DNA from: Candidatus Poribacteria bacterium
GTDB taxonomy: Bacteria > Poribacteria > WGA-4E > PCPOR2b
Direction: 5' to 3'
DNA: 64,000 nt
Assembly: GCA_965223985.1 (NCBI GenBank)
Contig: OZ245030.1
Span: 1,924,029-1,988,028 of the forward strand
Part shown: piece after piece, positions 24,012-40,251 of the stretch
Layout of the letters: every line of letters starts with the position of its first letter
Numbering within the stretch: the stretch's first letter is position 1
Position numbers and translations under genes: made by a program
The notes under the pieces: model-generated
Database searches by the model: none
The model's input: the letters and a program-made list of their open reading frames with translations, nothing else
What the model was told of the DNA's origin: nothing

Positions 24012-26030
24012 TTAAGGTACTGCTGAAGTTGTTGGATAAGAAATGTTTGGAGCCCGTTCCCTCCCTGATTCGTGCAACTGGGATGGAAGCAGTGCCGGAA
24101 CGCAAATGCCGCTAATAAAGGTCTCAATTAGTTGGATATACTCATCGAGCTGTTGTGCAATCTGATTGAATTTCTGAGTGGCGTTTTCGCGTACCTGCTT
24201 GTTGAAATCCGCGACATCACGCCGAACAAGTTGAACGTAATCTTCGTTCCACTCGTTGTCAATATATTGTCCATTGTTGGTGCAAATTCCTTTTAAATCC
24301 CCGGCAATTTTCATGAGGCGATTTGATGTAGTGTTCTTTATAGTCTTATCAATTTCAGCCGTCAGTCGGGCAAGTGTTCCAATGAATTCAAGTTCAAAAG
24401 CCCTGATATCGCCCGTTGGTTCATTTTTCATCAATTCCACAAGCTGATTGGAAATCTCATGTAACCCACGGGACTGCTTCAGATGCAGTAACACAAGTAT
24501 GTAGCTTGATTTTGCCAACCTCAATGCAACATCGTAGCAAGAATAGGAAGTCTGGCTTTGAATGTCGTGGACTTCTTTTTGAATTTCGAGCAAGTGTTCA
24601 TAATAACTCGCTTGCTCGCCTTGGATAGCGGAGTAAGTACCCGTGTTCGGGACTTCAAACGCTCTCTTTGTAAGAATTTCACGTTTATCATTGATTTCAC
24701 GATGCCGCTGCATTTCATCCGCATCTTCTAAGGCTTTGGCTAGCGATTCGATAGTTGGCTGAAGTCGATCGATTTGGATGCGAATCGGCGGATAGGCATC
24801 ATAACTTGCATCCGTTGTGATGTTACGAATTTTCCCTAGCACCTCGCCGAGTCTTTCTTCATACGCCTGATCTTCGAGCGGGGAGTATACTTCTTCTTCC
24901 TCCGCTTCCACGCCTATGTCCTCCTCAGCGAGGAATCTGTGCATAAATCGATAAAAATGCTCAAGTTGATTATCTTGAAGGAAACTCGCTTCTACGTAGA
25001 AGTAGAGTTTATCTTTGATAATTGTGCAGCTATCAATCACTGTGGCGCGGTCGAGGCTCAAAGCTGCCAAGCTAAGGTAAAAAAGATCTTCCTCGAGTTC
25101 GGCAAAATGCTTTTCAAAAGCTAGGGCAATTTTTTCGTAGGCTTCATCGGAAATTGATTGATGGCGGGCTTGTTTCGCGATGGTCATGTCATCCGAACGA
25201 TGAAAATCACTAGCTTGTTGACGAGTCTTCGTAATAATCAAAGGCGGATTGTCATCTGCTGAATGACTGGAAGGTTTTCGCATTGACGATTGCTGATTGT
25301 AAAGGTTAAGAGCGGCTTGATAGTGCCGTAGCAGTTCGCCATTACCTAGTTCAATCAACAGCGACTCAATTGTGTTTTTCGGATCGATGGAAATTCCTTC
25401 CTGTGCGAGCAATCTGTTAGATAAAGCGGCGAATCCTTCTCCACCTAAATTCCCAAAAGGACGCAGCAGAAATGCGCGTCCATCCTCAATGTAAATTTTC
25501 TGATTACCAAGTGGAAAGCGGTTCTTGACGTGCCCTCTGTCGTTATCAAACCAGATTTCCATTGGGTAAGTTTTGTTGTAGACCTGAAAATTGATAGCTC
25601 CTTCCAGTAACCGATCGAACAAATCTCGACGGATTTGCTCAAGGTCATTAACATCAATAAGGATTATCGAAGCGTTATCGTTCGTATGCAGCTTTGCTTC
25701 AATGATTTTGTCATTTGGGACCAAATAACGCCGTTCGAAAAAATGAATGCCCGTAACGTTATCGTTCGTGATGGCAAGCCTTGGAATATCATACTCATCG
25801 TAATAATAATATGATTTCCAACTGAGCGCACGCCGTCTCATCTTTTCAAATAACTGGAAGGACAGACGTTGTTTGGCTTTCCTTTCACGTTTTGGCACTG
25901 ATTCTGCCTCATACGGAATAAGCGTCCCCTTTGTATCAGGAACCTGTAAACTGAGTTGTGGTAGCGTAGAAGCTTTTTTCTTACCTGGAAGGCGGGTGAG
26001 CGCTTTATCAATAATATTCTTTCCAATCAA
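24012..26030 (-). CDS. Large hypothetical protein (672 aa), no recognisable domain
   Basis: Long uninterrupted ORF; first gene of a same-strand block with the 572-aa protein and the ABC permease. Confidence 0.4.
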   Translation of the reverse strand: MIGKNIIDKALTRLPGKKKASTLPQLSLQVPDTKGTLIPYEAESVPKRERKAKQRLSFQLFEKMRRRALSWKSYYYYDEYDIPRLAITNDNVTGIHFFERRYLVPNDKIIEAKLHTNDNASIILIDVNDLEQIRRDLFDRLLEGAINFQVYNKTYPMEIWFDNDRGHVKNRFPLGNQKIYIEDGRAFLLRPFGNLGGEGFAALSNRLLAQEGISIDPKNTIESLLIELGNGELLRHYQAALNLYNQQSSMRKPSSHSADDNPPLIITKTRQQASDFHRSDDMTIAKQARHQSISDEAYEKIALAFEKHFAELEEDLFYLSLAALSLDRATVIDSCTIIKDKLYFYVEASFLQDNQLEHFYRFMHRFLAEEDIGVEAEEEEVYSPLEDQAYEERLGEVLGKIRNITTDASYDAYPPIRIQIDRLQPTIESLAKALEDADEMQRHREINDKREILTKRAFEVPNTGTYSAIQGEQASYYEHLLEIQKEVHDIQSQTSYSCYDVALRLAKSSYILVLLHLKQSRGLHEISNQLVELMKNEPTGDIRAFELEFIGTLARLTAEIDKTIKNTTSNRLMKIAGDLKGICTNNGQYIDNEWNEDYVQLVRRDVADFNKQVRENATQKFNQIAQQLDEYIQLIETFISGICVPALLPSQLHESGRERAPNISYPTTSAVP

Positions 26031-27272: not shown

Positions 27273-28127
27273 ATGGAAGAAAATAAAAATAAACCCATAG
27301 TTGGTCGATACCAACAATTAGTAATGAGTTACGGCCCATCTTTGGTAAAGTTGCCTTCAGAAGAAGATTTAAAGAAGGCGCTGTTACTGTTAGATTTGTT
27401 GGTAGGAGACTTCGAAAAATCCCTCGGCTTTCTGAACCAATTGGAACACTTTGTTTCGTCGCCTCTCGATTTTAAGACCTTTGAAAGGAAGATGACGGAT
27501 CTCATAGAAGGTACCAGAGAAATTGCTGAAAGGGCACTCGATAATTACCACTACCTCTCGGGGAATCTCAAGGACATTTATACTATTTTTACTCAGACCG
27601 TTGAATCGGAAAATGCCATCGGTGAAACTCATGAAAGTATCAATGTTCGGTTCAAATTTTGGCTTCACTCATATCGGACTGAAAATGCGGGCGAGGGAAA
27701 GGGCTCAAAGGAAATACAGACCTTTTCTGAATTTATTCAGTTGCTGTCAAATGAACAATCGGGATATAGATATTTTATTTCTCCCCTTGGGGAAACGCAC
27801 TTTCTCATCTGCCAGTATGCCCCTCTTGAAAGTAGTCCAGAGAAGATTGAGCTCCATTTCTCCACGTATGTGGAACCGCCGGACACTTCCTTTCAAAGCT
27901 TGAAACGGGCATGGAATAAATTGTTCAGCGCCGCCAATAAAAGGGTTTACCATGTTTTCCGCGACTCACCCCCAAACTCTACAATTGGAACATTCAAGGA
28001 GCGATTGTCGGTTTCCATTCCGCCCTATACACCTCATCGCTACAATTACCCGGAACAGCTTACCAAGGTATCTATGACTTCATTAACGTTTACGGCGTTG
28101 ACGGGCGCCGACATATCCACCTGCTGA
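27273..28127 (+). CDS. Hypothetical protein (284 aa)
   Basis: Intact ORF downstream of a TATAAT-containing duplicated leader. Confidence 0.45.
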   Translation: MEENKNKPIVGRYQQLVMSYGPSLVKLPSEEDLKKALLLLDLLVGDFEKSLGFLNQLEHFVSSPLDFKTFERKMTDLIEGTREIAERALDNYHYLSGNLKDIYTIFTQTVESENAIGETHESINVRFKFWLHSYRTENAGEGKGSKEIQTFSEFIQLLSNEQSGYRYFISPLGETHFLICQYAPLESSPEKIELHFSTYVEPPDTSFQSLKRAWNKLFSAANKRVYHVFRDSPPNSTIGTFKERLSVSIPPYTPHRYNYPEQLTKVSMTSLTFTALTGADISTC

Positions 28128-28839: not shown

Positions 28840-29856
28840 ATGCAAACGCGGAAAATAAACTCAACGGTTGTGTTCGTTGGCGTGCTACTCTTGGGCAGCG
28901 CCGCTGTGCTTATGATTGCTCAAGCACAAGCCCCTATACGTTCAACTATTGCCGTTGCTACTTCTGGAGCGGAGGGATTCGGAATCTTTATCGTGGATCC
29001 CAAGAGACCGCAAGGCGGTACAGTGCAGCTCCTAGAGGTTGAAGGGGACCCAATTCCCGGCGGATTAGAGTGGTCTCCGGACGGCACTAAGATTGCTTTC
29101 CATACCCAAGTTGGACAGAATATAGATGTCTACGTTGTCGATGGTGACGGGGACGGTCTCAAACAGCTCACCGGCCATGAGGGGGAAGATAGCTGGCCCG
29201 CTTGGCACCCCAGCGGTCAAAAACTAGCCTTCACCAGCAATCGGGATGGCAACCTTGAGATTTACACCATGACATCGGGTGGGGTAGTTATCGGAAACTT
29301 AACAAACGATCCTGCTCCGGATCAGCATCCTGCTTGGTCTCCGAACGGTCGCAACATTGCTTTTGCCACCAAGCGCGGTCGTACTATCTCTGATGTCTGG
29401 CTTATGGATTCGGCGGGAGATAACCCACACAATCTAACCAACCACAAGGGAGAAGACGTTGAACCTTCGTGGTCGTGGGACAGCCAAAAGATTGCTTTTA
29501 CCACCCGTCGGTTTGGATCTGGGCGTGCTATGACAATGGACCCTGATGGTGGTAGCTTGCTGAAGATTTCGGGACCGGACGTTGAGCGAAGAGACCCCGA
29601 GTTTTCTCCAGATGGAAAAGAAATCGCCACTGTGTGGTTTGGGGGTGGTCAGACACGCTTGGATATATATTCAAGCAATGGCAAACATGCGGATGCAGAC
29701 CAACACGGGGCGCCAGTGTGGGATATCATCGATCTCGGATTCCCGAGCCGGGGTCCAGCCTGGTTTGACCCTGATTTTGTAGTACCGTTCTCTGTTTCCT
29801 CTACGGACAAACGCCCTTTGAGCTGGGGCTGGCTAAAGAGGGCAGGGCTTGAGTAA
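28840..29856 (+). CDS. TolB-like periplasmic beta-propeller protein (PD40 repeats), paralog 1
   Basis: Signal peptide ending AQAQAP; repeated …NRDGNLEIY… / …PAWSPNG…IAF… PD40 units; conserved C-terminal tail DKRPLSWGWLK. Confidence 0.75.
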   Translation: MQTRKINSTVVFVGVLLLGSAAVLMIAQAQAPIRSTIAVATSGAEGFGIFIVDPKRPQGGTVQLLEVEGDPIPGGLEWSPDGTKIAFHTQVGQNIDVYVVDGDGDGLKQLTGHEGEDSWPAWHPSGQKLAFTSNRDGNLEIYTMTSGGVVIGNLTNDPAPDQHPAWSPNGRNIAFATKRGRTISDVWLMDSAGDNPHNLTNHKGEDVEPSWSWDSQKIAFTTRRFGSGRAMTMDPDGGSLLKISGPDVERRDPEFSPDGKEIATVWFGGGQTRLDIYSSNGKHADADQHGAPVWDIIDLGFPSRGPAWFDPDFVVPFSVSSTDKRPLSWGWLKRAGLE

Positions 29857-30005
29857 TGATTCTTCCAATTCACTCAGTCGACTTTCTGAAAAATTCTGTT
29901 GGCCCATGTCAAAAGCAAGCGGATTGGGCATAAAAAGGTGCCAAGACACTTTGGGATAGGATGTCAACGTCGAACCGATGAAAATCATCATGGGGAGGAT
30001 GCATC

Positions 30006-31025
30006 ATGCAACTCCAGAAATCGCATTTAAGATTGGCAATATCTATGGGTATACTTTTCTTGAGCAGCATTGCCGTATTGATGATTGCTCAAGCACAAGC
30101 ACCTGACCGTTCAACAATTGCTATTGCCACGGGGATAGAGGGATTTGGAATTTATCTGCTCGACCCTGATAAACCAGCAGCTCATGCAGAGAAGCTCCTC
30201 GAAATTGAAGGGGATCCCATCCCCGGCGGGTTGGAGTGGTCTCAGGATGGCACTAGGATTGCTTTCCATACCCAAGTTGGACAGAATATAGATGTCTTCG
30301 TGGTCAGTGGTGATGGGAACGGTCTCAAACAGCTCACCGACCATGAAGCGGAAGATAGCTGGCCCGCTTGGCACCCCAGCAGTCAAAAGCTGGCCTTCAC
30401 CAGCAATCGGGATGGCAACCTTGAGATTTACACCATGACATCGGGTGGGGTAGTTATCGGAAACTTAACAAACGATCCTGCTCCGGATCGGCATCCCGCT
30501 TGGTCTCCGAACGGTCGCAACATTGCTTTTGCTACCAAGCGTGGGCGGACGCTGTCAGATATCTGGCTGATGGACTCCGCGGGAGGCAACCTTAAAAATC
30601 TAACCAACCACAAGGGTGAAGATCTTACCCCCTCGTGGTCATGGGACGGTCAAACGATTGCCTTTACCACCCGTCGGTTTGGAGCTGGTCGTACAATGCG
30701 GATGGACGCCGATGGTGGTAATCTGCTGACGATTTCTGCGCGTCAAGTTCCGCGGTTAGACCCCGAATTTTCTCCGGATGGGAAAGAAATCGCCAACGTG
30801 TGGTTTGGAGGCGGTCAGACGCGTCTCCATATATGGCCAAGCGATGGGAAGCTTGCGGACGCTGACGAACACGCGGCACCGGTGTGGAAAGAAATAGATC
30901 TAGGATTCCCGAGTGCGGGACCGGCCTGGTTTGACCCTGATTTTGTGGTACCGTTCTCTGTTTCCTCTGCGGACAAACGCCCTTTGAGCTGGGGCTGGCT
31001 AAAGAGCGCCGGACTTGAGAACTAG
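30006..31025 (+). CDS. TolB-like periplasmic beta-propeller protein, paralog 2
   Basis: Very similar to paralog 1 (long identical stretches); same signal peptide and C-terminal tail. Confidence 0.75.
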   Translation: MQLQKSHLRLAISMGILFLSSIAVLMIAQAQAPDRSTIAIATGIEGFGIYLLDPDKPAAHAEKLLEIEGDPIPGGLEWSQDGTRIAFHTQVGQNIDVFVVSGDGNGLKQLTDHEAEDSWPAWHPSSQKLAFTSNRDGNLEIYTMTSGGVVIGNLTNDPAPDRHPAWSPNGRNIAFATKRGRTLSDIWLMDSAGGNLKNLTNHKGEDLTPSWSWDGQTIAFTTRRFGAGRTMRMDADGGNLLTISARQVPRLDPEFSPDGKEIANVWFGGGQTRLHIWPSDGKLADADEHAAPVWKEIDLGFPSAGPAWFDPDFVVPFSVSSADKRPLSWGWLKSAGLEN

Positions 31026-31220
31026 CAGGTGATAGATGCTGTTATTGTCCGCTGAGATAATTTGGCACGTAGATGCCATTTTACTGAGTGTGTTCACTTC
31101 TGTAGTGAATTCCTGCTTAACAATTGATGAAGAGACATAGAAACGCGGCGGTTGCCGTGAACTTTTAAATCATTCAATCCTGATTTGTGGTCAGGGTTTC
31201 GTGAAAGGAGACAAAAGACT

Positions 31221-32246
31221 ATGCAACATCCAGTAACAGTTGTACGTCTAAGCATATTGGCGAGTGTATTCCTCGTGGGTTGTTTTGCGCTAATCCTGAG
31301 TGCACATGCTCAGGCACCCAATGGTCCTACCATCGCAGTTGCTAGTTTAGGGGACGGTGGGACGCTCTGGCTCATAGATAAGGATGGAGAACAAGCGCGC
31401 GCAATACACGACATTGAGGGGGATCCGGTAGTCTTAGGGTTGTCGTGGTCCCCGGACGGTAATAAGATTGCGTTCTTTTCTGAAAAGAAGAAGGACGTAG
31501 AAAGTGATGTGTACGTGGTGGATGCCGACGGTAAGGGGCTCAGAAATCTCACAGACCGTCAAGGGTTTGATGGCTGGCCCACTTGGCACCCCAGCGGGCA
31601 AAGGCTTGCCTTCACTACCGATCGAGATGGCAACCTTGAAATTTACACGATGTCGGCTCAAGGAATCATCGGTGGCAACCTCACGAACGATGCCGTTCCT
31701 GACCAAATGCCCACTTGGTCACCAGATGGTCGTAAGATTGCCTTTGCCACTAAACGAGGGAAGACACTAGGTGACATCTGGGTGATGGACACCAGCGGAG
31801 GCAGCCTCCAGAACCTGACCGAGCATAGGGGGCAGGACATCGAACCTCGATTTGCCTTCGACTCTAAAAAGATCGCTTGGACAACACGGCGGTTTGGGGA
31901 AGGAGCAATCATGGTCATGGATGCCGATGGACAGAATCAAGTACAGATTTCCCCTAACCCTGAAAATGAAAAGCGAGATCCTGCATTTTCGCCCGACGGT
32001 AAAAAAATCATCTACGTAAGATTCGGTGGGGGTCAGGCGAATATTCAGAAACGGTCGGTAAAACAGTTTGCAAAAGGAGTGCCGAATGTATGCGGGGGTG
32101 ATTGTTTTGAACTTCCGGGGATAGGTTTCCCAACACGTTCACCGGTGTGGTTTGACCCAGATTTTGTGGTTGAGTGGGCGGTTTCTCCTGCGGACAAACG
32201 TCCAATGACATGGGGCTGGATAAAACAGTTGGGGCAGAGCAGATAA
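31221..32246 (+). CDS. TolB-like periplasmic beta-propeller protein, paralog 3 (diverged)
   Basis: ORF 31185-32246, likely start ATG 31221 after AAAGGAG; signal peptide AHAQAP; PD40 repeats; tail DKRPMTWGWIK. Confidence 0.7.
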   Translation: MQHPVTVVRLSILASVFLVGCFALILSAHAQAPNGPTIAVASLGDGGTLWLIDKDGEQARAIHDIEGDPVVLGLSWSPDGNKIAFFSEKKKDVESDVYVVDADGKGLRNLTDRQGFDGWPTWHPSGQRLAFTTDRDGNLEIYTMSAQGIIGGNLTNDAVPDQMPTWSPDGRKIAFATKRGKTLGDIWVMDTSGGSLQNLTEHRGQDIEPRFAFDSKKIAWTTRRFGEGAIMVMDADGQNQVQISPNPENEKRDPAFSPDGKKIIYVRFGGGQANIQKRSVKQFAKGVPNVCGGDCFELPGIGFPTRSPVWFDPDFVVEWAVSPADKRPMTWGWIKQLGQSR

Positions 32247-32431
32247 TCACTTGTGCGGAGTCTATCCACCAGATCCAGTGTTGATGGGTACCGAATGGTG
32301 AGAATCAACTTCTTTGAAAGATATAACCAGCAAAGGCGGTAGTGACTGGAAGTTTCCCGGGCATTACAACATGCAATGATGGTTGCGCGGACTTTTTGCA
32401 TAGCCGCGACGAAAAGATCGAATTAGGAGTG

Positions 32432-32878
32432 ATGCAACAATACAGACATACCCAGATTGGTTATCTCCTCATCATCTTGTATAGCGCAGTGGTAGTCTTC
32501 ATAGGCTATGTGAATGTTTTGGTGGGTTTTAACCCGTTTGCCTTAGCCGCTCTAATTGTTATGGTTTTTGTTCTAAGGCTATTCTCTAGTTTGACGGTAG
32601 CGGTCGATGCCAAGATGATTAAGATTCAATTTGGTTTGGGGGTTATTCGTAAGGTTTTTCTGCTAAAGGACGTAGAAACATACTTTGTAGTCAAGAATCC
32701 TTGGTACTACGGTTGGGGGATTAGATTCACTACAAGAGGTTGGCTATTCAATGTTTCTGGTTTCTCGGCAATCGAACTTCAGATGAAGAATGGGAAGAGG
32801 TATCGGATAGGGACGGATGAGCCCGATAATTTAGCGAATGCGCTTACCGAAGCACTGAATGATGTTCCCGTTCAGTAA
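32432..32878 (+). CDS. Small membrane protein with bacterial PH-like domain
   Basis: ORF 32342-32878, likely start 32432 after AGGAG; two TM helices then beta-rich domain. Confidence 0.45.
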   Translation: MQQYRHTQIGYLLIILYSAVVVFIGYVNVLVGFNPFALAALIVMVFVLRLFSSLTVAVDAKMIKIQFGLGVIRKVFLLKDVETYFVVKNPWYYGWGIRFTTRGWLFNVSGFSAIELQMKNGKRYRIGTDEPDNLANALTEALNDVPVQ

Positions 32879-32900
32879 CTCTGCGCATAGAGGAAGAACG

Positions 32901-33686
32901 ATGTTTATTCGTATTGTAACACACGATTCGATTGCATGTATGAGTTTAGTAGCCTTCGCTTGCATCTTCGCAACATCAGGGCATGCAGAGATTGACCCAG
33001 ATACGATTGTAGGGTTGTGGCTCCTCGACGAGGATAAAGGTAGAGAAGCTAAAGATAGCTCAGGCAATGAACTTCACGGGACGTTCACAGGGTCTCCTAA
33101 GTGGAGGGAAGGTAAGTTCGGCCGGGGCCTGGAACTCCCAGGCGGAGGCGATACGGTCAAGATTGAAGGATTTGCCCAGGACTTTCCCACCGAGGAAGTG
33201 ACAATCACATCGTGGGTGAAGGTAGAAGGGTTCAAGAATCAAGACCTTTTTAGTCTCGAACCACTTGACCCTAGTCGCGTCACAGTCCACTTTCCGTGGG
33301 ATAACCAACTTCACTGGCAGTTCAGCACTATATGGATGCATCCACCACTTCCAATTGGTGAGGAGGTTGAAGGCAAATGGCAACATTGGGCTTTCATCCA
33401 TAGTATTGCGGATAACGTAATGCTTGCATATCAGGATGGCGAGGAGGTCGGAAGATCGCAGAACTCCAAAGCGTATGCTCCACGAGCCGGAGATTTTCAC
33501 ATAGGCGGTAGACTAGGTTCTTCTTTTCAGGGTTTCGTTGACGAAGTTGGACTGTTTGAGGCTGTCCTTAGCCAAGCTGATATACAAAGCATTATGGAAA
33601 ACGGTCTTGAGGCGCGAGTCTTTGCAGTTTCGCCAGCCAGCAAGCTTGCGATCTCCTGGGGTCAAATCAAAGCACGAAAGGAATGA
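32901..33686 (+). CDS. Secreted LamG-like (concanavalin A-like/Laminin_G_3) protein, type A copy 1
   Basis: Signal peptide …ATSGHA/EIDPDT; LamG hallmark GFVDEVGLFEAVLSQADIQSIM; C-terminal tail VSPASKLAISWGQIKARKE. Confidence 0.7.
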   Translation: MFIRIVTHDSIACMSLVAFACIFATSGHAEIDPDTIVGLWLLDEDKGREAKDSSGNELHGTFTGSPKWREGKFGRGLELPGGGDTVKIEGFAQDFPTEEVTITSWVKVEGFKNQDLFSLEPLDPSRVTVHFPWDNQLHWQFSTIWMHPPLPIGEEVEGKWQHWAFIHSIADNVMLAYQDGEEVGRSQNSKAYAPRAGDFHIGGRLGSSFQGFVDEVGLFEAVLSQADIQSIMENGLEARVFAVSPASKLAISWGQIKARKE

Positions 33687-33842
33687 TCTCCTGAGGAATT
33701 TCCAGTTTCACCCGTCAAAAAGTCTATTGCCCTGCGGTTGGTTCATGTAGGTGAGGTACGCGCCGTCGAGAGAAATCGTGTGGCTCACAGAACCACAGTA
33801 GAATTTTGAAACATATCAAACTATTTATAGGAGAAAAAAACG

Positions 33843-34640
33843 ATGTTTGATCGGATTGTAACAAGATTTTCGATTGTATGTATGAGTTTAGTAGCCTTCG
33901 GGTGGATTCTCGTAACATCAGGGTATGCAGAGATCGACCCAGATACCATTAGAGGGTTGTGGCTCCTTGACGAGGGCAAAGGAAAGGATGCCAAGGATGG
34001 CTCGGACAATGAACGTCACGGGACGTTCACGGGAACTCCCAAATGGAGGGAAGGTAAATTCGGCCAGGCCGTTGAGTTTGGAGGTGCAGGCGACACCGTC
34101 AAGATTGAAGGATTTGGCATGGAATTTCCCTCGGAGGAAGTGACAATTACGTCGTGGGTGAAGTTAGAGGGGTTCAGGAATCAAGACCTTTTTAGTCTCG
34201 TGCCGCTTGAGGTTGGTAACAAGGGCCGCGTCACAGTCCACTTTCCCTGGGATAACGCTGTTCACTGGCAGTTCGGCACGCCTTTTACGGGGATTGCACC
34301 GGTTGCGCTCGACAAGGCGGTGGAAGGCAAATGGCAGCACTGGGCTTTCATTCATAGTGTTAAAGAAAACGTGTTTCTTGTGTATCAGGATGGCGAGGAA
34401 GTGCGAAGGACAGCGAATTCGCAAGCGTTTGTTCCAGGAGCCGCAGATTTTCACATAGGTGGTAGACTGGGTTCTTCTTTTGAGGGTTTCGTTGACGAAG
34501 TTGGAGTTTTTGAGGCTGTCCTTAGCCAAGCTGACATAAAAAGCATCATGGAAAATGGTCTTGAAGCGCGCGTCTTTGCTGTGTTGCCAGCCAGCAAACT
34601 TGCGACTTCCTGGGGTCGAATCAAAGTGAAAAGGGAGTAA
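33843..34640 (+). CDS. Secreted LamG-like protein, type B copy 1
   Basis: Paralog with EVGNKGRVTV variant; tail LPASKLATSWGRIKVKRE. Confidence 0.7.
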   Translation: MFDRIVTRFSIVCMSLVAFGWILVTSGYAEIDPDTIRGLWLLDEGKGKDAKDGSDNERHGTFTGTPKWREGKFGQAVEFGGAGDTVKIEGFGMEFPSEEVTITSWVKLEGFRNQDLFSLVPLEVGNKGRVTVHFPWDNAVHWQFGTPFTGIAPVALDKAVEGKWQHWAFIHSVKENVFLVYQDGEEVRRTANSQAFVPGAADFHIGGRLGSSFEGFVDEVGVFEAVLSQADIKSIMENGLEARVFAVLPASKLATSWGRIKVKRE

Positions 34641-34819
34641 CCCCGGGCGCGCCGCCGCGGGGGGAATTGTCCTATCTTTGTATTCAACACTTGTCTTTAA
34701 TCCATGTGCGACCAAACCCTTGCGAAGGTTTCAAACCTTCGCAAGGGTAAACCTCGCTGGCACACCATATCGTCTCTACACCATTGAGTGAGATTGGGAA
34801 ACATTGGAGATTTGCCGCA

Positions 34820-34940
34820 ATGAAGACGCACCATTAGTGAAGCAAAGCTGACCGATATGTAGGTCATGGAGTTCTGTAGAAACGAGTTCTTCATGTTTGA
34901 AAGCGTAGTTCCGCATGAATTTAATCAACGAACCATCTAC
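34820..34940 (+). pseudogene. 5' remnant of a PhyH-family dioxygenase gene
   Basis: ~120 nt alignable to the first 130 nt of the gene at 36810 (ATGAAGACGCACCATTAG…), with a stop at codon 6. Confidence 0.6.
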
Positions 34941-34960
34941 ATTTGTCGGAGGCAAAAACG

Positions 34961-35743
34961 ATGTTTATTCGCACTATAGCAAGATTTTCGATTGCATGTA
35001 TGAGTTTAGTAGTCTTCGCTTGCATCTTCGCAACATCAGGGCATGCAGAGATTGACCCAGATACGATTGTAGGGTTGTGGCTCCTCGACGAGGATAAAGG
35101 CAGAGAAGCTAAAGATAGCTCAGGCAATGAACTTCACGGGACGTTCACGGGATCTCCTAAGTGGAGGGAAGGTAAGTTCGGCCGGGGCTTGGAGTTCCCG
35201 GGAGGGGGCGATACTGTCAAAATTGAAGGATTTGCCCAGGACTTTCCCACGGAAGAAGTGACAATCACATCGTGGGTGAAAGTAGAGGGGTTCAAGAATC
35301 AAGACCTTTTTAGTATGGAACCGCTTGACCCTAGTCGCGTCACAGTCCACTTTCCGTGGGATGGCCACCTTCACTGGCAGTTTAGCAATACGGGTATGGC
35401 TCCAATTCTGATTGGCGAAGCGGTAAAAGGGAAATGGCAACACTGGGCTTTCATCCATAGTGTTGCGGATAACGTGATGCTCGCCTATCAGGATGGCGAG
35501 GAGGTCCGAAGAACATCGGTTTCAAATGCGTATGTTCCGCGGGCCGGAAGTTTTCACATAGGCGGCAGACTGGGTTCTTCGTTTCAGGGTTTCGCTGACG
35601 AAGTTGGCCTGTTTGAGGCTGTCCTTAGCCAAGCTGACATAAAAAGCATCATGGAAAACGGTCTCGAGGCTCGCGTTTTTGCGGTTTCGCCAGCCAGCAA
35701 ACTTGCAACTTCTTGGGGTCAAATCAAGGCAGGAAGAGAGTGA
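34961..35743 (+). CDS. Secreted LamG-like protein, type A copy 2
   Basis: Near-identical over long stretches to 32901-33686; tail VSPASKLATSWGQIKAGRE. Confidence 0.7.
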   Translation: MFIRTIARFSIACMSLVVFACIFATSGHAEIDPDTIVGLWLLDEDKGREAKDSSGNELHGTFTGSPKWREGKFGRGLEFPGGGDTVKIEGFAQDFPTEEVTITSWVKVEGFKNQDLFSMEPLDPSRVTVHFPWDGHLHWQFSNTGMAPILIGEAVKGKWQHWAFIHSVADNVMLAYQDGEEVRRTSVSNAYVPRAGSFHIGGRLGSSFQGFADEVGLFEAVLSQADIKSIMENGLEARVFAVSPASKLATSWGQIKAGRE

Positions 35744-35879
35744 ATCCCAAACACCTATTCACTGTGGTTTGTTCAAGTAGTTGGGGTAAGCGCTGTCCAG
35801 CGATATTGTGTGGCTGGGAGAGCCACAGTAAAATTTTGAAACGCATCAAGCTATTTCTATTTGTAGGAGGAAAAGAACG

Positions 35880-36680
35880 ATGTTTGTACGTATTGTAACA
35901 AGCGTTTCAATTGCATGTATGAGTTTAGTAGCCTTCAGTTGGATCTTTACAACATCATCAGGGTATGCAGAGATCGACCCAGATACCATTAGAGGGTTGT
36001 GGCTCCTTGACGAGGGCAAGGGAAAGGACGCCAAGGATAGATCGGGCAATGAACTTCACGGGACGTTCACGGGAACTCCCAAATGGAGGGAAGGTAAATT
36101 CGGTCAGGCCGTTGAGTTTGGAGGTGCAGGCGACACCGTCAAAATTGAAGGATTTGGCCTGGAATTTCCCGCGGAGGAAGTGACAATCACATCGTGGGTA
36201 AAGGTAGAGGGGTTCAAGAATCAAGACCTTTTTAGTCTCGAGCCGCTTGAGGTTGGTAACAAAGGCCGCGTCACAGTCCACTTTCCCTGGGACAACGGTG
36301 TTCACTGGCAGTTCGGCACCCCTTTTACGGGGATTGATCCAATTCCGCTCGACAAAGCGGTAAAAGGTAAATGGCAGCACTGGGCTTTCATCCATAGTGT
36401 TGTAGAAAACATGTTCCTTGTCTATCAGGATGGCGAGGAAGTGAAAAAAACACCGAGGTCAAAGGCGTTTGTTCCAGGAGCCGCAGATTTTCACATAGGC
36501 GGTAGACTGGGTTCTTCTTTTGAGGGTTTCGTTGACGAAGTTGGAGTTTTTGAGGCTGTCCTTAGCCAAGCTGACATAAAAAGCATCATGGAAAATGGTC
36601 TTGAAGCGCGTGTCTTTGCGGTTGCGCCAGCCAACAAACTTGCGACCTCCTGGGGCAAAATCAAGGCACAAAGAGAGTGA
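35880..36680 (+). CDS. Secreted LamG-like protein, type B copy 2
   Basis: Near-identical to 33843-34640; tail VAPANKLATSWGKIKAQRE. Confidence 0.7.
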   Translation: MFVRIVTSVSIACMSLVAFSWIFTTSSGYAEIDPDTIRGLWLLDEGKGKDAKDRSGNELHGTFTGTPKWREGKFGQAVEFGGAGDTVKIEGFGLEFPAEEVTITSWVKVEGFKNQDLFSLEPLEVGNKGRVTVHFPWDNGVHWQFGTPFTGIDPIPLDKAVKGKWQHWAFIHSVVENMFLVYQDGEEVKKTPRSKAFVPGAADFHIGGRLGSSFEGFVDEVGVFEAVLSQADIKSIMENGLEARVFAVAPANKLATSWGKIKAQRE

Positions 36681-36809
36681 CCCAGAGACCACCTCGTTTT
36701 GCGCATTTTAACACCTGTTCTTGCGATTCATGCGCGGCTAAACCCTTAGCGGGACTAGCCGAGCGATCAATTGCGGGTTAGATTAGGAACATATTGGAGA
36801 TCGACCACA

Positions 36810-37592
36810 ATGCAAACGCACGATTGCGAAGCAACGCTGACCGATTCGCAGGTCTTGGAATTCTGTAAAAATGGGTTCTTAATGTTTGAAGGCGTTGTTC
36901 CAGATGAAATTAATCAGCGGGTCTATGAATATTGCGATGACCATGAAGGTCAGGTACCTGCGGGCGAAGACTGGTACATTGAGAACGTCACGCTTAATCC
37001 ACAAGTGACCGGTGCGATACGATCCGTCTTGGGCAAGAATTTCCGTTATAATCTTTTCGCCGGCAATCATCGAGTCCAGGGTCCGACCCACATGACCGGC
37101 GGGTGGCACAACGATGGGGGATCTGTTTACAAGCCCGATCTTGATTCCTTGCAGGTATTTTACTATCCACAGGACACCCCCGTTGCACTTGGACCGACCG
37201 AAGTGGTTCCCGGTTCACATTTTCTCGTCCATTTGCAGCGCTGGATGGGACACTACACGGGCATCAAAGGAGCGGTCTCTACAGAAGCGCCCGCAGGCTC
37301 GATTTTTCTCACTATCTATTCTGTTTGGCATCGGCGGAGCACCTCTACAGCGAGCGGCATCCGTAATCTGATTAAGTATTGGTATATACGCACGTCGCCG
37401 CCGGAGCGTGACTGGGCTATCGAACCAGATTTTGACCTCGTACGCCCCTATCATTTCCCACCTGGTCCAACCTTCCACAGGGAACATCACCACACAATCA
37501 ATGACGCTGCTGAGATTTATTATTGGTTGTGCGGAAAACACGGCGAATATCGCGGTCACACTAACAATTTGCCCGTCTATTTCTCTAGATAG
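36810..37592 (+). CDS. PhyH-family Fe(II)/2-oxoglutarate dioxygenase, paralog 1
   Basis: HxD motif (WHNDGG) and distal His (PGSHF); no signal peptide. Confidence 0.7.
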   Translation: MQTHDCEATLTDSQVLEFCKNGFLMFEGVVPDEINQRVYEYCDDHEGQVPAGEDWYIENVTLNPQVTGAIRSVLGKNFRYNLFAGNHRVQGPTHMTGGWHNDGGSVYKPDLDSLQVFYYPQDTPVALGPTEVVPGSHFLVHLQRWMGHYTGIKGAVSTEAPAGSIFLTIYSVWHRRSTSTASGIRNLIKYWYIRTSPPERDWAIEPDFDLVRPYHFPPGPTFHREHHHTINDAAEIYYWLCGKHGEYRGHTNNLPVYFSR

Positions 37593-37606
37593 GGAGGGAT
37601 ACTACT

Positions 37607-38398
37607 TTGGGCAGCCATGACTTCGAACCAACACTGACAGATACGCAAGTTCTTGAGTTTTGCAGAGATGGGTTCTTAATGTTCAAAGGTGTCGTGCCGG
37701 ATGAAATTAATCGACGGGTCTTTGACTATTGCGACGCACACGATGGCAACGTACCAGCAGGCGAGGATTGGTATATTGATAATGTGACGCTTAATCCGCA
37801 AGCGGCTGGTGCGATACGGTCTCTTTTAGGCAAAAACTTCCGTTGGTCAGGGGCGGGCAACCACCGCATCCGATGCCCGGTTCAAGAATTACACCAGCAA
37901 TCGAACGGTTTGTGGCATAACGACGGAGGCTCCGTATACACGCCGGAGATTGATTGCCTGCAAGTGTTTTATTACCCACAGGATACCCCTGTGGAGCTAG
38001 GTCCAACAGAGGTGGTGCCTAGTTCTCATTTTCTCCACAGTTACCATTTCTGGATGGGCCATTATGGCAGGATTCGGAGTGCAGTTTCCACAGCAGCGCC
38101 GGCAGGCTCGATTTTTCTCACCATCTACCGCATTTGGCATCGGCGCAGTCCGTCTACAGCAAGCGGTATTCGCAATCTAATTAAGTATTCGTACATACGA
38201 ACTGTACCGCCCGAGCACGATTGGATTATTGAGCCGGGGTTCGATCTCGCGCATACCTATCACGCGCCGCCCGGTCCACAGTTCCACCGAGAATACCACC
38301 GCACTATCAATGACGCCGCTGAGATTTACTTTTGGCTGTGTGGCAAACACAATCAATATCGCGGCGCCCGGAGTAGTTTGCCCATCTATTACTCTTGA
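37607..38398 (+). CDS. PhyH-family dioxygenase, paralog 2
   Basis: ~70% aa identity to paralog 1; WHNDGG / PSSHF. Confidence 0.7.
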   Translation: MGSHDFEPTLTDTQVLEFCRDGFLMFKGVVPDEINRRVFDYCDAHDGNVPAGEDWYIDNVTLNPQAAGAIRSLLGKNFRWSGAGNHRIRCPVQELHQQSNGLWHNDGGSVYTPEIDCLQVFYYPQDTPVELGPTEVVPSSHFLHSYHFWMGHYGRIRSAVSTAAPAGSIFLTIYRIWHRRSPSTASGIRNLIKYSYIRTVPPEHDWIIEPGFDLAHTYHAPPGPQFHREYHRTINDAAEIYFWLCGKHNQYRGARSSLPIYYS

Positions 38399-38607
38399 TG
38401 GAAGCGTAATAATTGATAGCGTATGAAGCGGGAACATCCAGTCCAAAAATATCTAGGATGTGGACGTGGCAAAAGAGCAATTCATACGAAGGACGAGCAG
38501 AGGTTTGCTACAAGAATTCGGGATATGTGAAGGCTCAAAATTGAGAAGAGTATAACGAGTGTGGCGATACGGGCAATATTTTATCAAGAGACATATAGGG
38601 TTATCGG

Positions 38608-39396
38608 TTGATGAAAACTTATAACAGTGAGCCTACGCTTACGGACACCCAAGTGCTAGAGTTCTGTAGAGATGGCTTCATGATGCTCAAGGGTGTTGTG
38701 CCAGAAGAGATTAATAAGCAAACATTTGAGTTCCTCGATTTACACCCGCATGGCAAACCAGTTGAAATTCTAAAGGAGGATTGGTTTGTCGAGAACGTGA
38801 TTCTTAATTCGCAGGCAGTGGGTATCGTGCGGTCGCTACTGGGGAAGAACTTTGCGCTCGCCACTCGGATTGCCAATCATCGAGCCGAGTGCCCAGGACC
38901 AGCCCAGCATTGGCACCGAGATGGCGGATCGATTCACAGTCCTGAGATGGATAGTTTACAGGTGTTCTATTATCCTCAGGACACCCCGCTTGAACTAGGC
39001 CCAACACAGGTGGTGCCCGGTTCCCACCTGCTCTTCTCTTTGCAGAGCCATATGAGACATTATGGCAGTATACGAGTTGCTCATTCCGCAGTAGCCCCCG
39101 CAGGCTCAATTTTCATCACGATGTATTCCATTTGGCACCGCCGCGGCCCATCCACGTCGCATGGTACGCGCAATCTGCTGAAATATTGGTACCGGCGAAC
39201 TGTGCCTCCCGAACGCGACTGGGTTATTGAACAGGAGTTCAATCTTCAGCAGGCTTATCATTTCTCGCACGGCATAACCTTCAATCGAGAAGGTCACAAG
39301 ACCATTAATGACGCTGCCGAGATTTATTTTTGGCTGTGCGGCAAGCACGACCAATATCGCGCGCGCACTAACAATTTGCCCGTCTATTTCTCTTGA
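38608..39396 (+). CDS. PhyH-family dioxygenase, paralog 3
   Basis: WHRDGG / PGSHL motifs. Confidence 0.7.
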   Translation: MMKTYNSEPTLTDTQVLEFCRDGFMMLKGVVPEEINKQTFEFLDLHPHGKPVEILKEDWFVENVILNSQAVGIVRSLLGKNFALATRIANHRAECPGPAQHWHRDGGSIHSPEMDSLQVFYYPQDTPLELGPTQVVPGSHLLFSLQSHMRHYGSIRVAHSAVAPAGSIFITMYSIWHRRGPSTSHGTRNLLKYWYRRTVPPERDWVIEQEFNLQQAYHFSHGITFNREGHKTINDAAEIYFWLCGKHDQYRARTNNLPVYFS

Positions 39397-39408
39397 GAGG
39401 AGGGGGCA

Positions 39409-40251
39409 TTGGAAACACATGACTGTGAGCCGACGTTGACCGACACACAAGTGGTCGAGTTCTGCAAGCAGGGCTACCTAATGTTGAAGGGTGTTGTGCC
39501 GGAGGAGATTAACCGGCGTGTGTGTGAATGTGTGGGGGGTGGCTTCGAAGATGGGAGACTGCTTCAAGAGGACTGGTTTCGTGATAGCGTGATTCTCAAT
39601 CAGCAGGCGGCTGGAGCGGTGCGGTCGCTGTTGGGAAAGCAGTTTTCCACACCGGTTGGGTTGTACAATCATCGGGTTGAGTGTCCTGCTCCATCTCAGC
39701 ATTGGCACCGGGACGGGGGATCGCGTCACGAACCAGAACTAAATCATTTGCAGGTGTTCTATTATCCGAAGGATACTCCAGTAGAGCTTGGGCCAACAGA
39801 GGTATTACCTTGTTCCCATTTTTTCTTCTGCTTCCAGAGTTGGATGGAGCACTACGCCAACATAAAGGGGACGATTAAAACAGCCGCGCCGGCGGGTTCG
39901 ATTTTCATCACGGTTTATTCGATATGGCATCGGCGTCCTGTTTCTACCGGGCATGGCGTTCGCGATATGTTGAAATACTGCTATTGGCGAACGGTACCAC
40001 CTCAACGGGATTGGGTTGTCGAACCCGACTTCGATCCGGCAACTGCCTCATATAGCCTGAATGGCGCAATTTCCCAGCCGCCTCGGCAGCAGTTTGACGA
40101 TTGGAACGATGCTGCGCGGATGTTTTACTGGTTGTGTGGAGAGTCCAACGAGTTGCACACAGTATTGGGCGGCGAGGGATGGCCTCCAGGATATCCCCCA
40201 CCCCGTCCTGATGGTCAGATATATCCGCCCAAAGGATTCCGCCGGTTTTGA
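39409..40251 (+). CDS. PhyH-family dioxygenase, paralog 4, with Pro/Gly-rich C-terminal extension
   Basis: WHRDGG / PCSHF; extra tail GGEGWPPGYPPPRPDGQIYPPKGFRRF. Confidence 0.65.
   Translation: METHDCEPTLTDTQVVEFCKQGYLMLKGVVPEEINRRVCECVGGGFEDGRLLQEDWFRDSVILNQQAAGAVRSLLGKQFSTPVGLYNHRVECPAPSQHWHRDGGSRHEPELNHLQVFYYPKDTPVELGPTEVLPCSHFFFCFQSWMEHYANIKGTIKTAAPAGSIFITVYSIWHRRPVSTGHGVRDMLKYCYWRTVPPQRDWVVEPDFDPATASYSLNGAISQPPRQQFDDWNDAARMFYWLCGESNELHTVLGGEGWPPGYPPPRPDGQIYPPKGFRRF

What the first reader, a model, noticed from the sequence alone, without database searches (positions are those of the whole stretch)
29752..36680. Conserved extreme C-terminal tail shared by two unrelated folds (PD40 propellers and LamG proteins)
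The tails are: TolB-like 1/2 …FSVSSxDKRPLSWGWLKxAGLE*; TolB-like 3 …AVSPADKRPMTWGWIKQLGQSR*; the four LamG copies …VSPASKLA(T/I)SWGQIKARKE*. The consensus is V-S-P-A-x-K-[RL]-x-[LT]-[ST]-W-G-x-[IL]-K followed by 5-7 residues and the stop. No transmembrane segment follows, so this does not look like PEP-CTERM, LPXTG, GlyGly-CTERM or a T9SS CTD. It also lacks the terminal aromatic residue of an outer-membrane beta-signal. One short motif on proteins of different folds in one cluster argues for a shared sorting, docking or processing signal. It could also be the substrate epitope of the neighbouring PhyH hydroxylases, which is speculative.
Basis: seen in the sequence. Interest (0 to 1): 0.8.

Follow-up and report, generated by a model that had tools for sequence, protein, structure and literature searches.

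The report
Poribacterial C-terminal tag on secreted proteins
Seven neighbouring secreted proteins of a sponge-associated Poribacteria genome end in the same ~20-residue tail, which is a phylum-wide, apparently undescribed C-terminal tag found on dozens of unrelated secreted binding proteins and most likely sorts or docks them in the cell envelope.

Summary
Three PD40 propeller proteins and four LamG proteins (window 28840-36680, + strand) end in V-x-P-x-x-K-[LR]-x-x-[ST]-W-G-x-[IL]-K, then 4-6 residues and a stop. The window is from Candidatus Poribacteria.

The tail is widespread:
113 are labelled Poribacteria, 7 are unlabelled, and none is from another phylum.
- All 142 matches sit 1-12 codons before a stop.
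- Carriers fall into at least 30-43 sequence-unrelated families: LamG, PD40, Kelch, CBM9, CBM4/9, DUF1080, discoidin and many with no Pfam domain.
- About 95% have an N-terminal signal peptide. None has a C-terminal transmembrane segment.

Third codon positions are almost free, so selection acts on the peptide. AlphaFold places the tail outside both folds (pLDDT 57-68 and below 50). PD40 homologues in other named phyla lack it. No Pfam, NCBIfam, PDB or literature match was found.

Best reading: a new TM-less C-terminal sorting or docking tag read by a common, unidentified envelope partner. The function is inferred, not shown. The PhyH-substrate idea is not supported. An uncharacterised membrane protein (DUF6785/6784) recurs next to carriers and is a lead.

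The parts
28840..29856 (+). PD40 (TolB-like) beta-propeller protein 1, 338 aa, with an N-terminal signal peptide (..MIAQAQA) and the C-terminal tag
29788..29856 (+). tag of PD40-1: FSVSSTDKRPLSWGWLKRAGLE + stop
30006..31025 (+). PD40 beta-propeller protein 2, 339 aa, with signal peptide and tag
30954..31025 (+). tag of PD40-2: FSVSSADKRPLSWGWLKSAGLEN + stop
31221..32246 (+). PD40 beta-propeller protein 3. The likely start is the ATG at 31221 (341 aa, as in homologues P0203-P0206); the longest ORF starts at 31185. Has signal peptide and tag.
32175..32246 (+). tag of PD40-3: WAVSPADKRPMTWGWIKQLGQSR + stop. AlphaFold2 gives pLDDT below 50 for residues 320-341.
32901..33686 (+). LamG (Laminin_G_3) protein 1. 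The likely start is 32901 (261 aa, same N- and C-terminal sequence as P0004); the longest ORF starts at 32859. Has signal peptide and tag.
33621..33686 (+). tag of LamG-1: FAVSPASKLAISWGQIKARKE + stop
33843..34640 (+). LamG protein 2, 265 aa, with signal peptide and tag
34575..34640 (+). tag of LamG-2: FAVLPASKLATSWGRIKVKRE + stop
34961..35743 (+). LamG protein 3 (identical to P0001, 260 aa; the longest ORF starts at 34943), with signal peptide and tag. The AlphaFold2 model has mean pLDDT 90.
35678..35743 (+). tag of LamG-3: FAVSPASKLATSWGQIKAGRE + stop. pLDDT is 57-68, outside the LamG sandwich.
35880..36680 (+). LamG protein 4, 266 aa, with signal peptide and tag
36615..36680 (+). tag of LamG-4: FAVAPANKLATSWGKIKAQRE + stop

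Best explanation
The tail is a modular C-terminal sorting or docking tag, seen here only in genomes labelled Poribacteria or left unlabelled. Its consensus is [L/T/F]-[A/P]-V-[E/D/S]-P-x-[G/D]-K-L-[A/S/T]-T-T-W-[G/A]-x-[L/I]-K, followed by 1-8 mostly basic or polar residues and the stop.

Proposed mechanism: the carriers are small (about 200-350 aa), mostly single-domain, lectin-like or propeller binding proteins. They are exported by the Sec pathway through a cleavable N-terminal signal peptide. After export, the flexible tail is not part of the fold. One common envelope component binds it as a linear peptide. That component keeps or positions the carriers in the cell envelope, either displayed on the surface or coupled to uptake machinery. 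A short C-terminal piece may be processed off.

Shown here: the tail is strictly C-terminal, modular, under peptide-level selection, lies outside the fold, co-occurs with signal peptides, and has no transmembrane anchor.

Inferred: that a common partner exists, what it is, and whether the outcome is retention, surface display or processing.
For: - Strictly C-terminal. All 142 position-blind DNA-pattern matches in Poribacteria genome stretches are followed by an in-frame stop 1-12 codons later (141 within 8, mode 3). A core-only pattern gives 103 of 122 matches within 8 codons in metagenome contigs. The V-x-P part reappears upstream there although the pattern did not require it.
- Modular. 162 carriers fall into 30 BLAST-unrelated groups, and 260 carriers into 43. 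Pfam finds Laminin_G_3, PD40, Kelch, CBM9_1, CBM_4_9, 3keto-disac_hyd, F5_F8_type_C and DUF3108_like; many carriers have no Pfam domain.
- Gained on a domain. 72 of 120 PD40 homologues carry the tail. The named homologues from other phyla (Thermofonsia, Solirubrobacteraceae, Pyrinomonadaceae) lack it.
- Stronger constraint than the domain. In an 81-sequence LamG alignment at about 30% identity, the tail Trp is one of only two invariant columns. V, K, L and K of the tail are at least 90% conserved.
- Selection acts on the peptide. Third codon positions have 1.7-2.0 bits of entropy, and both Leu codon families are used.
- Outside the fold. AlphaFold2 gives pLDDT 57-68 (LamG) and below 50 (PD40) for the tail, against 90 and 87 overall.
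- Exported. 142 of 150 genome carriers and 102 of 107 metagenome carriers have an N-terminal hydrophobic signal region.
- No C-terminal transmembrane segment. The highest 15-residue Kyte-Doolittle mean in the last 45 residues is 1.74.
- Lineage. All 120 returned genome stretches are from MAGs labelled Poribacteria (113) or unlabelled (7).
- The LamG carriers resemble carbohydrate-binding lectin domains, such as AbnA domain 4 and the trans-sialidase lectin domain.
Against: - No receptor, sortase-like enzyme or secretion component was identified. The 64-kb window holds none, and the recurrent neighbours are ordinary abundant Poribacteria families.
- There are no experimental data on localisation or processing.
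The phylum restriction and the number of carriers per genome are therefore not established. Metagenome carriers come from groundwater, Tara Oceans and other contigs of unknown taxon.
- The extreme C-terminus is variable, so recognition of the free carboxylate is unlikely. Why the tag must be terminal is unexplained.
- The secondary structure of the tail is unresolved. AlphaFold predicts a low-confidence helix. The hydrophobic moment favours neither a helix nor a strand convincingly.
Confidence: 0.55

Rival explanations
1. Outer-membrane translocation signal. The tail is a minimal secretion signal, functionally like the T9SS C-terminal domain. An outer-membrane translocon reads it to move periplasmic intermediates out of the cell, and the tail is then cleaved off.
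For: Carriers use a two-signal layout: an N-terminal Sec signal plus a conserved C-terminal element. The cargo is typical of extracellular proteins, such as CBMs, lectins and a HExxH protease-like protein. Poribacteria also encode proteins with T9SS-type FlgD_ig C-terminal domains. Kamke 2014 (PMC3909097) found no T9SS structural genes in the single-cell genomes, so an unknown export route already has to be assumed.
Against: The tail is about 20 residues and disordered, not a 70-100-residue Ig-like sandwich (PMC11285876). No translocon gene was found near carriers. Nothing here separates secretion from retention.
Confidence: 0.18
2. Covalent anchoring through the invariant Lys. The few residues after the final Lys are trimmed, or a transpeptidase acts at the motif. 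The carrier is then cross-linked to peptidoglycan or a glycolipid, as Lpp's C-terminal Lys is linked by L,D-transpeptidases or T9SS cargo by PorU.
For: The motif has an invariant Lys 1-8 residues (mode 3) from the end. It is followed by a short, variable, expendable piece rich in Arg and Lys (30% K/R). Strict C-terminal placement is what a cleavage or transpeptidation signal needs.
Against: The final residue is Lys in only 25 of 163 tails. The invariant Lys is terminal in 1 of 164. No candidate enzyme was found, and there are no mass-spectrometry data.
Confidence: 0.1
3. Membrane-binding amphipathic element. The tail is a short interfacial helix (Leu, Trp and Leu at i, i+4, i+7, flanked by Lys/Arg) that sticks exported proteins to an anionic membrane surface without any protein receptor.
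For: AlphaFold2 predicts a helix over the TWGxIK core in both families (LamG 244-259, PD40 332-338). Trp plus flanking basic residues is typical of interfacial anchors.
Against: The helical hydrophobic moment equals that of shuffled tails (0.281 against 0.282 +- 0.010), although the test has low power on 11 residues. The helix confidence is low. Near-invariance of polar or small residues (T-T, G, P, the Lys positions) across 30+ families points to specific recognition. Membrane-targeting helices usually conserve only their amphipathic pattern (my general knowledge).
Confidence: 0.07
4. Post-translational modification epitope. The tail is the substrate site of the adjacent PhyH-family Fe(II)/2-oxoglutarate dioxygenases, or of another modifying enzyme.
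For: Four PhyH paralogues directly follow the four LamG genes on the same strand (36771-40251). In Poribacteria genome stretches, PhyH makes up 46 of 668 non-tagged ORFs (6.9%) and occurs in 33 of 120 stretches. Kamke 2014 reports that more than 1.9% of genes in every poribacterial genome carry this domain.
Against: In the independently selected metagenome set, 120 carriers have only 3 PhyH among 483 other ORFs. Only 14 PhyH ORFs are directly adjacent to a carrier, and 6 of those are on the same strand. PhyH is the most abundant family in Poribacteria anyway. The four window PhyH ORFs begin without an obvious signal peptide, so they are probably cytoplasmic, whereas carriers are exported.
Confidence: 0.05
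5. Structural element. The tail is the conserved last strand or helix of a cryptic C-terminal domain, or a fold-capping element of each carrier.
For: It follows the last secondary-structure element closely, with no long linker.
Against: AlphaFold confidence in the tail is low in two well-modelled folds. The identical motif sits on at least 30 unrelated folds, including propellers, jelly-rolls and unknown folds. The shared part is about 20 residues, too short for a domain. PD40 homologues fold without it.
Confidence: 0.03

Closest known systems
PEP-CTERM / exosortase sorting signals (and relatives such as IPTL-, VPEID- and GlyGly-CTERM)
   Same: Both are short C-terminal tags on Sec-exported proteins of many unrelated families. 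Both are lineage-restricted and occur in many copies. The layout is similar: a proline-containing signature (V-[E/D]-P here, P-E-P there), then a spacer, then a basic end.
   Different: The spacer here is 12 polar residues (x-G-K-L-A-T-T-W-G-x-L-K), not a roughly 20-residue transmembrane helix. No PEP-CTERM-type NCBIfam model matches, even at E <= 10. No exosortase was looked for or found.
T9SS C-terminal domain (TIGR04183 / Por_Secre_tail; FlgD_ig-type CTDs)
   Same: Both use two signals, an N-terminal Sec signal and a conserved C-terminal element. Both occur on diverse secreted or surface proteins, with a conserved motif at the very C-terminus.
   Different: The T9SS CTD is a folded Ig-like 3+4 beta-sandwich of about 70-100 residues (PMC11285876). 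The tail here is about 20 residues and is predicted to be unstructured, with no HMM match. Poribacteria carry FlgD_ig-type CTDs as a separate element on other proteins (L009 3278-4867). That element is probably what Kamke 2014 reported.
Dockerin-cohesin docking (cellulosome-type assembly)
   Same: Both are modular C-terminal appendages that could plug many different carbohydrate-binding or enzymatic modules into one common scaffold. The carriers here are mostly CBM- or lectin-like.
   Different: Dockerins are duplicated Ca-binding domains of about 60-70 residues with a Pfam model. The tail is a single short linear motif with no Dockerin_1 match. No cohesin-like receptor has been identified for it.
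Donor-strand or short-helix linear docking motifs (chaperone-usher N-terminal extensions; i/i+4/i+7 helical motifs of the p53-MDM2 type)
   Same: Both are short, terminal, flexible peptides with a few invariant hydrophobic residues plus a conserved Gly, and become ordered only on a partner. The tail has a beta-type hydrophobic moment slightly above shuffled controls (0.322 against 0.276 +- 0.012) and L-x3-W-x2-L spacing.
   Different: This is an analogy only, recalled from general knowledge. No partner, no complex model and no sequence relationship were found.
Braun lipoprotein (Lpp) C-terminal Lys attachment to peptidoglycan
   Same: Both have an invariant Lys at or near the C-terminus of an exported envelope protein.
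   Different: The Lys of Lpp is the terminal residue. Here 1-8 residues follow it in 163 of 164 tails. The carriers are not lipoproteins: a lipobox-like pattern occurs in 6 of 141, and these look spurious.

Membership tests
PEP-CTERM / exosortase substrates | Hydrophobic transmembrane helix (about 20 aa) between the signature motif and the basic C-terminal cluster | tested here: not met
   Only 12 residues separate the Pro from the final Lys. The highest 15-residue Kyte-Doolittle mean in the last 45 residues is 1.74 (median 0.59) over 165 carriers.
PEP-CTERM / exosortase substrates | P-E-P-type signature motif | tested here: inconclusive
   V-[E 44% / D 23% / S 8%]-P is present. It reappears without being required by the search pattern. 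It is V-E-P rather than P-E-P, and the resemblance may be coincidental.
PEP-CTERM / exosortase substrates | Match to curated PEP-CTERM-type HMMs (NCBIfam/TIGRFAM) | tested here: not met
   No NCBIfam hit covers the tail at E <= 1 on the full proteins. Tail-only queries give none at E <= 10.
PEP-CTERM / exosortase substrates | Exosortase gene in the same genome | not tested
Only 64 kb of this genome is in hand, and it holds none.
T9SS cargo (C-terminal domain) | Folded Ig-like 3+4 beta-sandwich CTD of about 70-100 residues (PMC11285876) | tested here: not met
   The shared element is about 20 residues. AlphaFold2 gives it pLDDT 57-68 and below 50, with no strands.
T9SS cargo (C-terminal domain) | Match to TIGR04183 / Por_Secre_tail / FlgD_ig models | tested here: not met
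   None for the seven window proteins or for 29 other carriers. A separate Poribacteria protein does match FlgD_ig.
T9SS cargo (C-terminal domain) | T9SS machinery genes (PorU/PorV/SprA and others) | not tested
   Not searched here. Kamke 2014 reported none in the poribacterial single-cell genomes.
Sortase (LPXTG) substrates | LPXTG-like motif + transmembrane helix + basic tail | tested here: not met
   There is no LPXTG and no transmembrane helix, and no NCBIfam hit.
Outer-membrane beta-barrel beta-signal | C-terminal aromatic residue on a beta-barrel protein | tested here: not met
   The last residue is F, Y or W in 26 of 163 tails, and in none of the seven window proteins. The carriers are soluble jelly-roll or propeller folds.
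Lpp-type peptidoglycan-linked proteins | Lys as the terminal residue | tested here: not met
   The invariant Lys is followed by 1-8 residues in 163 of 164 tails. The final residue is Lys in 25 of 163.
Dockerin modules | Duplicated Ca-binding module of about 60-70 residues (Pfam Dockerin_1) | tested here: not met
   No Dockerin_1 hit in any carrier scanned. The tail is too short.
Cytoplasmic encapsulation / membrane-targeting amphipathic helices (BMC encapsulation peptides, MinD/FtsA-type) | Cytoplasmic cargo and helical amphipathicity | tested here: not met
   142 of 150 and 102 of 107 carriers have N-terminal signal peptides. The helical hydrophobic moment equals that of shuffled controls.

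The most novel reading that the evidence does not exclude
Poribacteria, and possibly some uncultured relatives in groundwater and the open ocean, have a previously unrecognised protein-sorting or docking system. Its address label is a 20-residue, TM-less C-terminal peptide (VEPxGKLxTTWGxLK). A dedicated and still unknown receptor or processing enzyme reads it. One candidate to test is the uncharacterised polytopic membrane protein DUF6785/DUF6784 that recurs beside carriers. The system would arrange a large repertoire of lectin-like, CBM and propeller modules on the symbiont envelope, and so would be central to glycan capture and sponge-symbiont contact.
Probability: 0.45. Interest if true: 0.85.

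Novelty: new variant of a known kind. Interest (0 to 1): 0.72.

Why it matters
C-terminal sorting signals (LPXTG, PEP-CTERM, the T9SS CTD and others) have each led to the discovery of a dedicated envelope machine. They are also practical handles for predicting surface proteomes. This tag has no transmembrane segment, no folded domain and no database model. Yet it is the most conserved part of hundreds of secreted proteins in a dominant, uncultivated sponge-symbiont phylum.

If a dedicated partner reads it, three things follow:
- It defines the displayed or secreted binding-protein repertoire of Poribacteria from sequence alone.
- It gives a short peptide bait for pull-downs to find the machinery in an organism that cannot be grown.
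- It may reveal a docking or sorting mechanism that differs from the known ones.

It also bears on an older puzzle. Kamke 2014 reported T9SS-like C-terminal domains in poribacterial genomes that lacked T9SS structural genes. This work shows that Poribacteria use at least two distinct C-terminal elements.

Tried and rejected
- Tail-only profile in the 5.8-billion-protein search. I padded the first sequence with upstream LamG residues. Both profile searches then used all 45 columns and were biased towards LamG. They confirmed only that the matches lie at C-termini (591 representatives at E <= 1e-3). They did not widen the set of domain families. The DNA-pattern scans did that instead.
- Taxon names for non-sponge carriers. 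A cluster look-up returned no organism names, so the taxonomy of the metagenome carriers stays open.
- Tail profile against PDB sequences: only a chance hit at E = 0.85.
- NCBIfam with tail-only queries at E <= 10: nothing.
- Literature: no paper contains the motif strings. None links Poribacteria to a C-terminal motif other than the TIGR04183 remark in Kamke 2014.
- Lipobox test, asking whether tagged proteins avoid lipoprotein signal peptides: 6 of 141 against 13 of 153. This is not informative, and the six look spurious.
- Hydrophobic moment. The helical value equals the shuffled one, and the beta value is about 3.8 SD above it. The window is short and the test has low power, so the secondary structure stays unresolved.
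- Sorting machinery among neighbours. The window has M16 peptidases, transporters, TPR and restriction-modification genes, but no sortase or secretion genes. The recurrent neighbours in 240 stretches are PhyH, LRR, GFO/IDH/MocA, TPR, FG-GAP/ASPIC, FGE-sulfatase and sulfatase, which are ordinary abundant Poribacteria families.
- Conserved DNA or RNA element instead of a peptide: rejected, because third codon positions are nearly free.
- Cryptic shared domain: rejected.
- PhyH substrate epitope: not supported.

Full report
**1. The observation**

Window 28840-36680 (+ strand) holds three PD40/TolB-like beta-propeller ORFs and four Laminin_G_3 ORFs.
- The PD40 ORFs are 28840-29856, 30006-31025 and 31185/31221-32246.
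- The LamG ORFs end at 33686, 34640, 35743 and 36680.
- All seven end in V-x-P-x-x-K-[L/R]-x-x-[S/T]-W-G-x-[I/L]-K, followed by 4-6 residues and the stop.

In all six frames of the 64 kb, WGx[ILVM][KR] lies within 6 residues of a stop only in these seven ORFs. The degenerate DNA pattern for the LamG-type tail has four matches, against 0.00 expected from shuffles. The Pfam domain matches stop before the tail.

Four to six residues follow the Lys, not five to seven. The LamG tails are not identical.

**2. Source organism and how widespread the tail is**

The LamG protein at 34961-35743 is identical to a protein on a 4.6-Mb ENA contig. Its named relatives are Candidatus Poribacteria.

Of 43 LamG homologues, 39 keep the tail, down to 29-36% identity. 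In an 81-sequence LamG alignment the tail Trp is one of only two invariant columns of the whole protein. V, K, L and K of the tail are at least 90% conserved.

Of the 120 best PD40 homologues, 72 carry a tail of the types KRPLTWGWIKQ, KKFTIWGRLKQ or KTTTTWGRLKK. The homologues named from other phyla (Thermofonsia, Solirubrobacteraceae, Pyrinomonadaceae) lack it. The tail is therefore an add-on to the domain.

*Genome scan.* I scanned one genome for each of 185,579 species with a DNA pattern that ignores position.
113 come from MAGs labelled Poribacteria and 7 from unlabelled MAGs. None comes from another phylum.
- The Poribacteria MAGs include some from hot-spring, Guaymas and Caspian samples.
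- All 142 matches are followed by an in-frame stop 1-12 codons later. 141 are within 8 codons, the mode is 3, and none is at 0.

*Metagenome scan.* I used a core-only pattern, K-L-x-T-T-W-G-x-[LIM]-K.
- Of 122 matches, 103 lie within 8 codons of a stop.
- The upstream [A/P]-V-[E/D/S]-P reappears although the pattern did not require it.
- The contigs include Tara Oceans and Hainich groundwater, with GC of 0.33-0.55.
- The clear false positives are internal sites in cytosine DNA methyltransferases.

**3. Anatomy of the tag and its carriers**

Over 164 tails the consensus is [L/T/F]-[A/P]-V-[E/D]-P-x-[G/D]-K-L-[A/S/T]-T-T-W-[G/A]-x-[L/I]-K, followed by 1-8 residues.
- Those last residues are 30% Lys/Arg and 5% Asp/Glu.
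- Positions the search pattern left free are also conserved, for example Thr at -2 in 69% and Glu/Asp at -9 in 67%.
- No transmembrane-like stretch follows or overlaps the tag.
- Third codon positions carry 1.7-2.0 bits of entropy and both Leu codon families are used. The constraint is on the peptide, not on a DNA or RNA element.

The carriers are small, with a median of about 260 aa, and nearly all have an N-terminal signal peptide. 142 of 150 genome carriers and 102 of 107 metagenome carriers do.

With the tail removed, they fall into 30 BLAST-unrelated groups (genome set) or 43 (both sets).
- LamG dominates, at about 50-58%.
- Other Pfam families are PD40, Kelch, CBM9_1, CBM_4_9, 3-keto-disaccharide hydrolase/DUF1080, F5/8 type C and DUF3108-like.
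- One carrier is a HExxH protein, and many have no Pfam match.

The modelled LamG domain resembles carbohydrate-binding lectin domains, namely AbnA domain 4 and the trans-sialidase lectin domain.

**4. Is the tail part of the fold?**

AlphaFold2 with deep alignments models the LamG protein at mean pLDDT 90 and the PD40 protein at 87. The tails score 57-68 and below 50. Only a short, low-confidence helix is predicted over the TWGxIK core. Together with the variety of folds that carry it, this rules out a cryptic shared domain or a fold-capping strand.

The conformation of the tail itself is unresolved.
- The helical hydrophobic moment equals that of shuffled controls.
- The beta moment is modestly higher (0.322 against 0.276 +- 0.012).
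- The window is short, so the test is weak.
- The L-x3-W-x2-L spacing would also suit a docking helix.

**5. Mechanism**

*Shown:* the tag is a strictly terminal, modular element. It is under strong peptide-level selection, lies outside the fold, sits on Sec-exported binding proteins, and has no membrane anchor of its own.

*Inferred:* after export, one common envelope partner reads it. That partner retains, displays or positions the carriers, and may process the tail.

I put this at 0.55. The closely related alternatives are an outer-membrane translocation signal (0.18) and covalent anchoring through the invariant Lys (0.10). A receptor-free interfacial helix (0.07), a modification epitope (0.05) and a structural element (0.03) are less likely.

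*The PhyH idea.* Four PhyH genes directly follow the LamG array (36771-40251).
- In Poribacteria genome stretches, PhyH makes up 6.9% of non-tagged ORFs. Kamke 2014 reports more than 1.9% of genes in every poribacterial genome.
- Near 120 metagenome carriers there are only 3 PhyH among 483 other ORFs.
- Only 6 PhyH genes are adjacent to a carrier on the same strand.

PhyH is therefore not an obligatory partner.

**6. The search for the partner**

The window has no sortase-like or secretion genes. The recurrent neighbours are families known to be abundant in Poribacteria.

One lead stands out. It is a polytopic membrane protein of about 640 aa with Pfam DUF6785 + DUF6784.
- It has no NCBIfam, PDB or literature record.
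- It occurs in 8 of 240 stretches.
- In 7 of these it lies within two genes of a carrier, and in 5 it is on the same strand as the nearest carrier.
- In several of these stretches there are also ORFs that look like cytoplasmic sugar-type enzymes. I judged this mainly by resemblance to Pfam-scanned cluster members; the ORFs themselves were not scanned.

If the gene were single-copy, about 0.35 occurrences would be expected. Its copy number is unknown, however, and one stretch holds two copies, so I cannot judge the significance. It could be a transporter in sugar-utilisation-like loci, or the tail's receptor.

**7. Comparison with known systems**

The closest in logic are PEP-CTERM/exosortase tags and the T9SS C-terminal domain.
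- The tag fails the defining features of both. It has no transmembrane helix, no folded Ig-like domain (PMC11285876) and no HMM match.
- It also fails LPXTG, the OMP beta-signal, Lpp-type terminal Lys and dockerin.
- Poribacteria do encode FlgD_ig/T9SS-type C-terminal domains on other proteins, for example a cohesin+dockerin protein at L009 3278-4867. That is probably what Kamke 2014 noted. The short tag is a second, distinct C-terminal element.

No paper in the searchable library mentions the motif.

**8. Verdict**

The finding is real and far beyond chance. I rate it a new variant of a known kind (C-terminal sorting or docking tags).

Open points:
- the partner and the outcome are unknown;
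- the rest of this genome was not censused.

Noticed in passing
L172 421-2343; L104 3664-5589; L195 3251-5200; L226 1939-3867; L095 2623-4548 and 6552-8000; L209 3-1535; L034 3586-5505; L049 1-831: An uncharacterised polytopic membrane protein of about 640 aa (Pfam DUF6785 + DUF6784; no NCBIfam, PDB or literature record) lies within 0-2 genes of a tail carrier in 7 of 8 stretches. In 5 of them it is on the same strand as the nearest carrier. Several stretches also hold ORFs that look like GFO/IDH/MocA, xylose-isomerase-like, PhyH or enolase-type enzymes; I judged this by resemblance and did not scan most of them with Pfam. It could be a transporter in sugar-utilisation-like loci or the tail's receptor.
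   Followed up: partly
window 36771-40251 (+): Four tandem PhyH-family dioxygenase paralogues (only the first was scanned with Pfam) directly follow the four LamG genes on the same strand. PhyH is over-represented near carriers in Poribacteria genome stretches (6.9% of other ORFs) but nearly absent near carriers in metagenome contigs (0.6%).
   Followed up: yes
L009 3278-4867: A Poribacteria protein has Cohesin + Dockerin_1 + a FlgD_ig (T9SS-type) C-terminal domain. This is a second, different C-terminal element in a phylum for which Kamke 2014 found no T9SS structural genes in the single-cell genomes. Its export route is unexplained.
   Followed up: no
window 32342-32878 (+): A 178-aa ORF with two predicted membrane helices and no Pfam or NCBIfam match sits between the PD40 and LamG arrays. 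It overlaps the longest-ORF start of the first LamG gene.
   Followed up: no
L015 and L116 (whole 8-kb stretches); L037 3638-5901: Other Poribacteria carry tandem arrays of 5-8 PD40 paralogues. Each ends in subfamily-specific tail variants (KTTTTWGRLKKLAPNLR, KLPISWGVLKRS, NQITIWGRLKKLAPYLR), so tail variants track the carrier subfamily.
   Followed up: partly
window 52081-53409 (-) and 57910-61237 (-): An AAA_15/AAA_21 (AbiEii-like) ATPase and an Eco57I/MmeI-type restriction-modification methylase with a DUF7814 neighbour. This looks like a small defence island.
   Followed up: no
window 21976-23694 (-), 24012-26030 (-), 27273-28127 (+): Three sizeable ORFs (572, 672 and 284 aa) have no Pfam match. 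They lie in the lowest-GC part of the window (GC 0.40-0.44), just upstream of the PD40 array.
   Followed up: no
window 416-2674 (+) and 44429-47479 (-): Two large M16 (insulinase-type) peptidase genes. They are the only peptidases seen in the window, and nothing links them to the tail.
   Followed up: no
L138, L141, L159, L168, L216, L217, L222, L140 (metagenome contigs, including a human-gut contig): The core pattern K-L-x-T-T-W-G-x-L-K also hits an internal site, 78-89 residues before the stop, in a family of C5 cytosine DNA methyltransferases. These are false positives for the tail and show what a non-terminal match looks like.
   Followed up: yes
window 12175-14976 (+): A 933-aa protein with a BNR/sialidase-like repeat domain. 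It fits the glycan-foraging gene content around the cluster.
   Followed up: no
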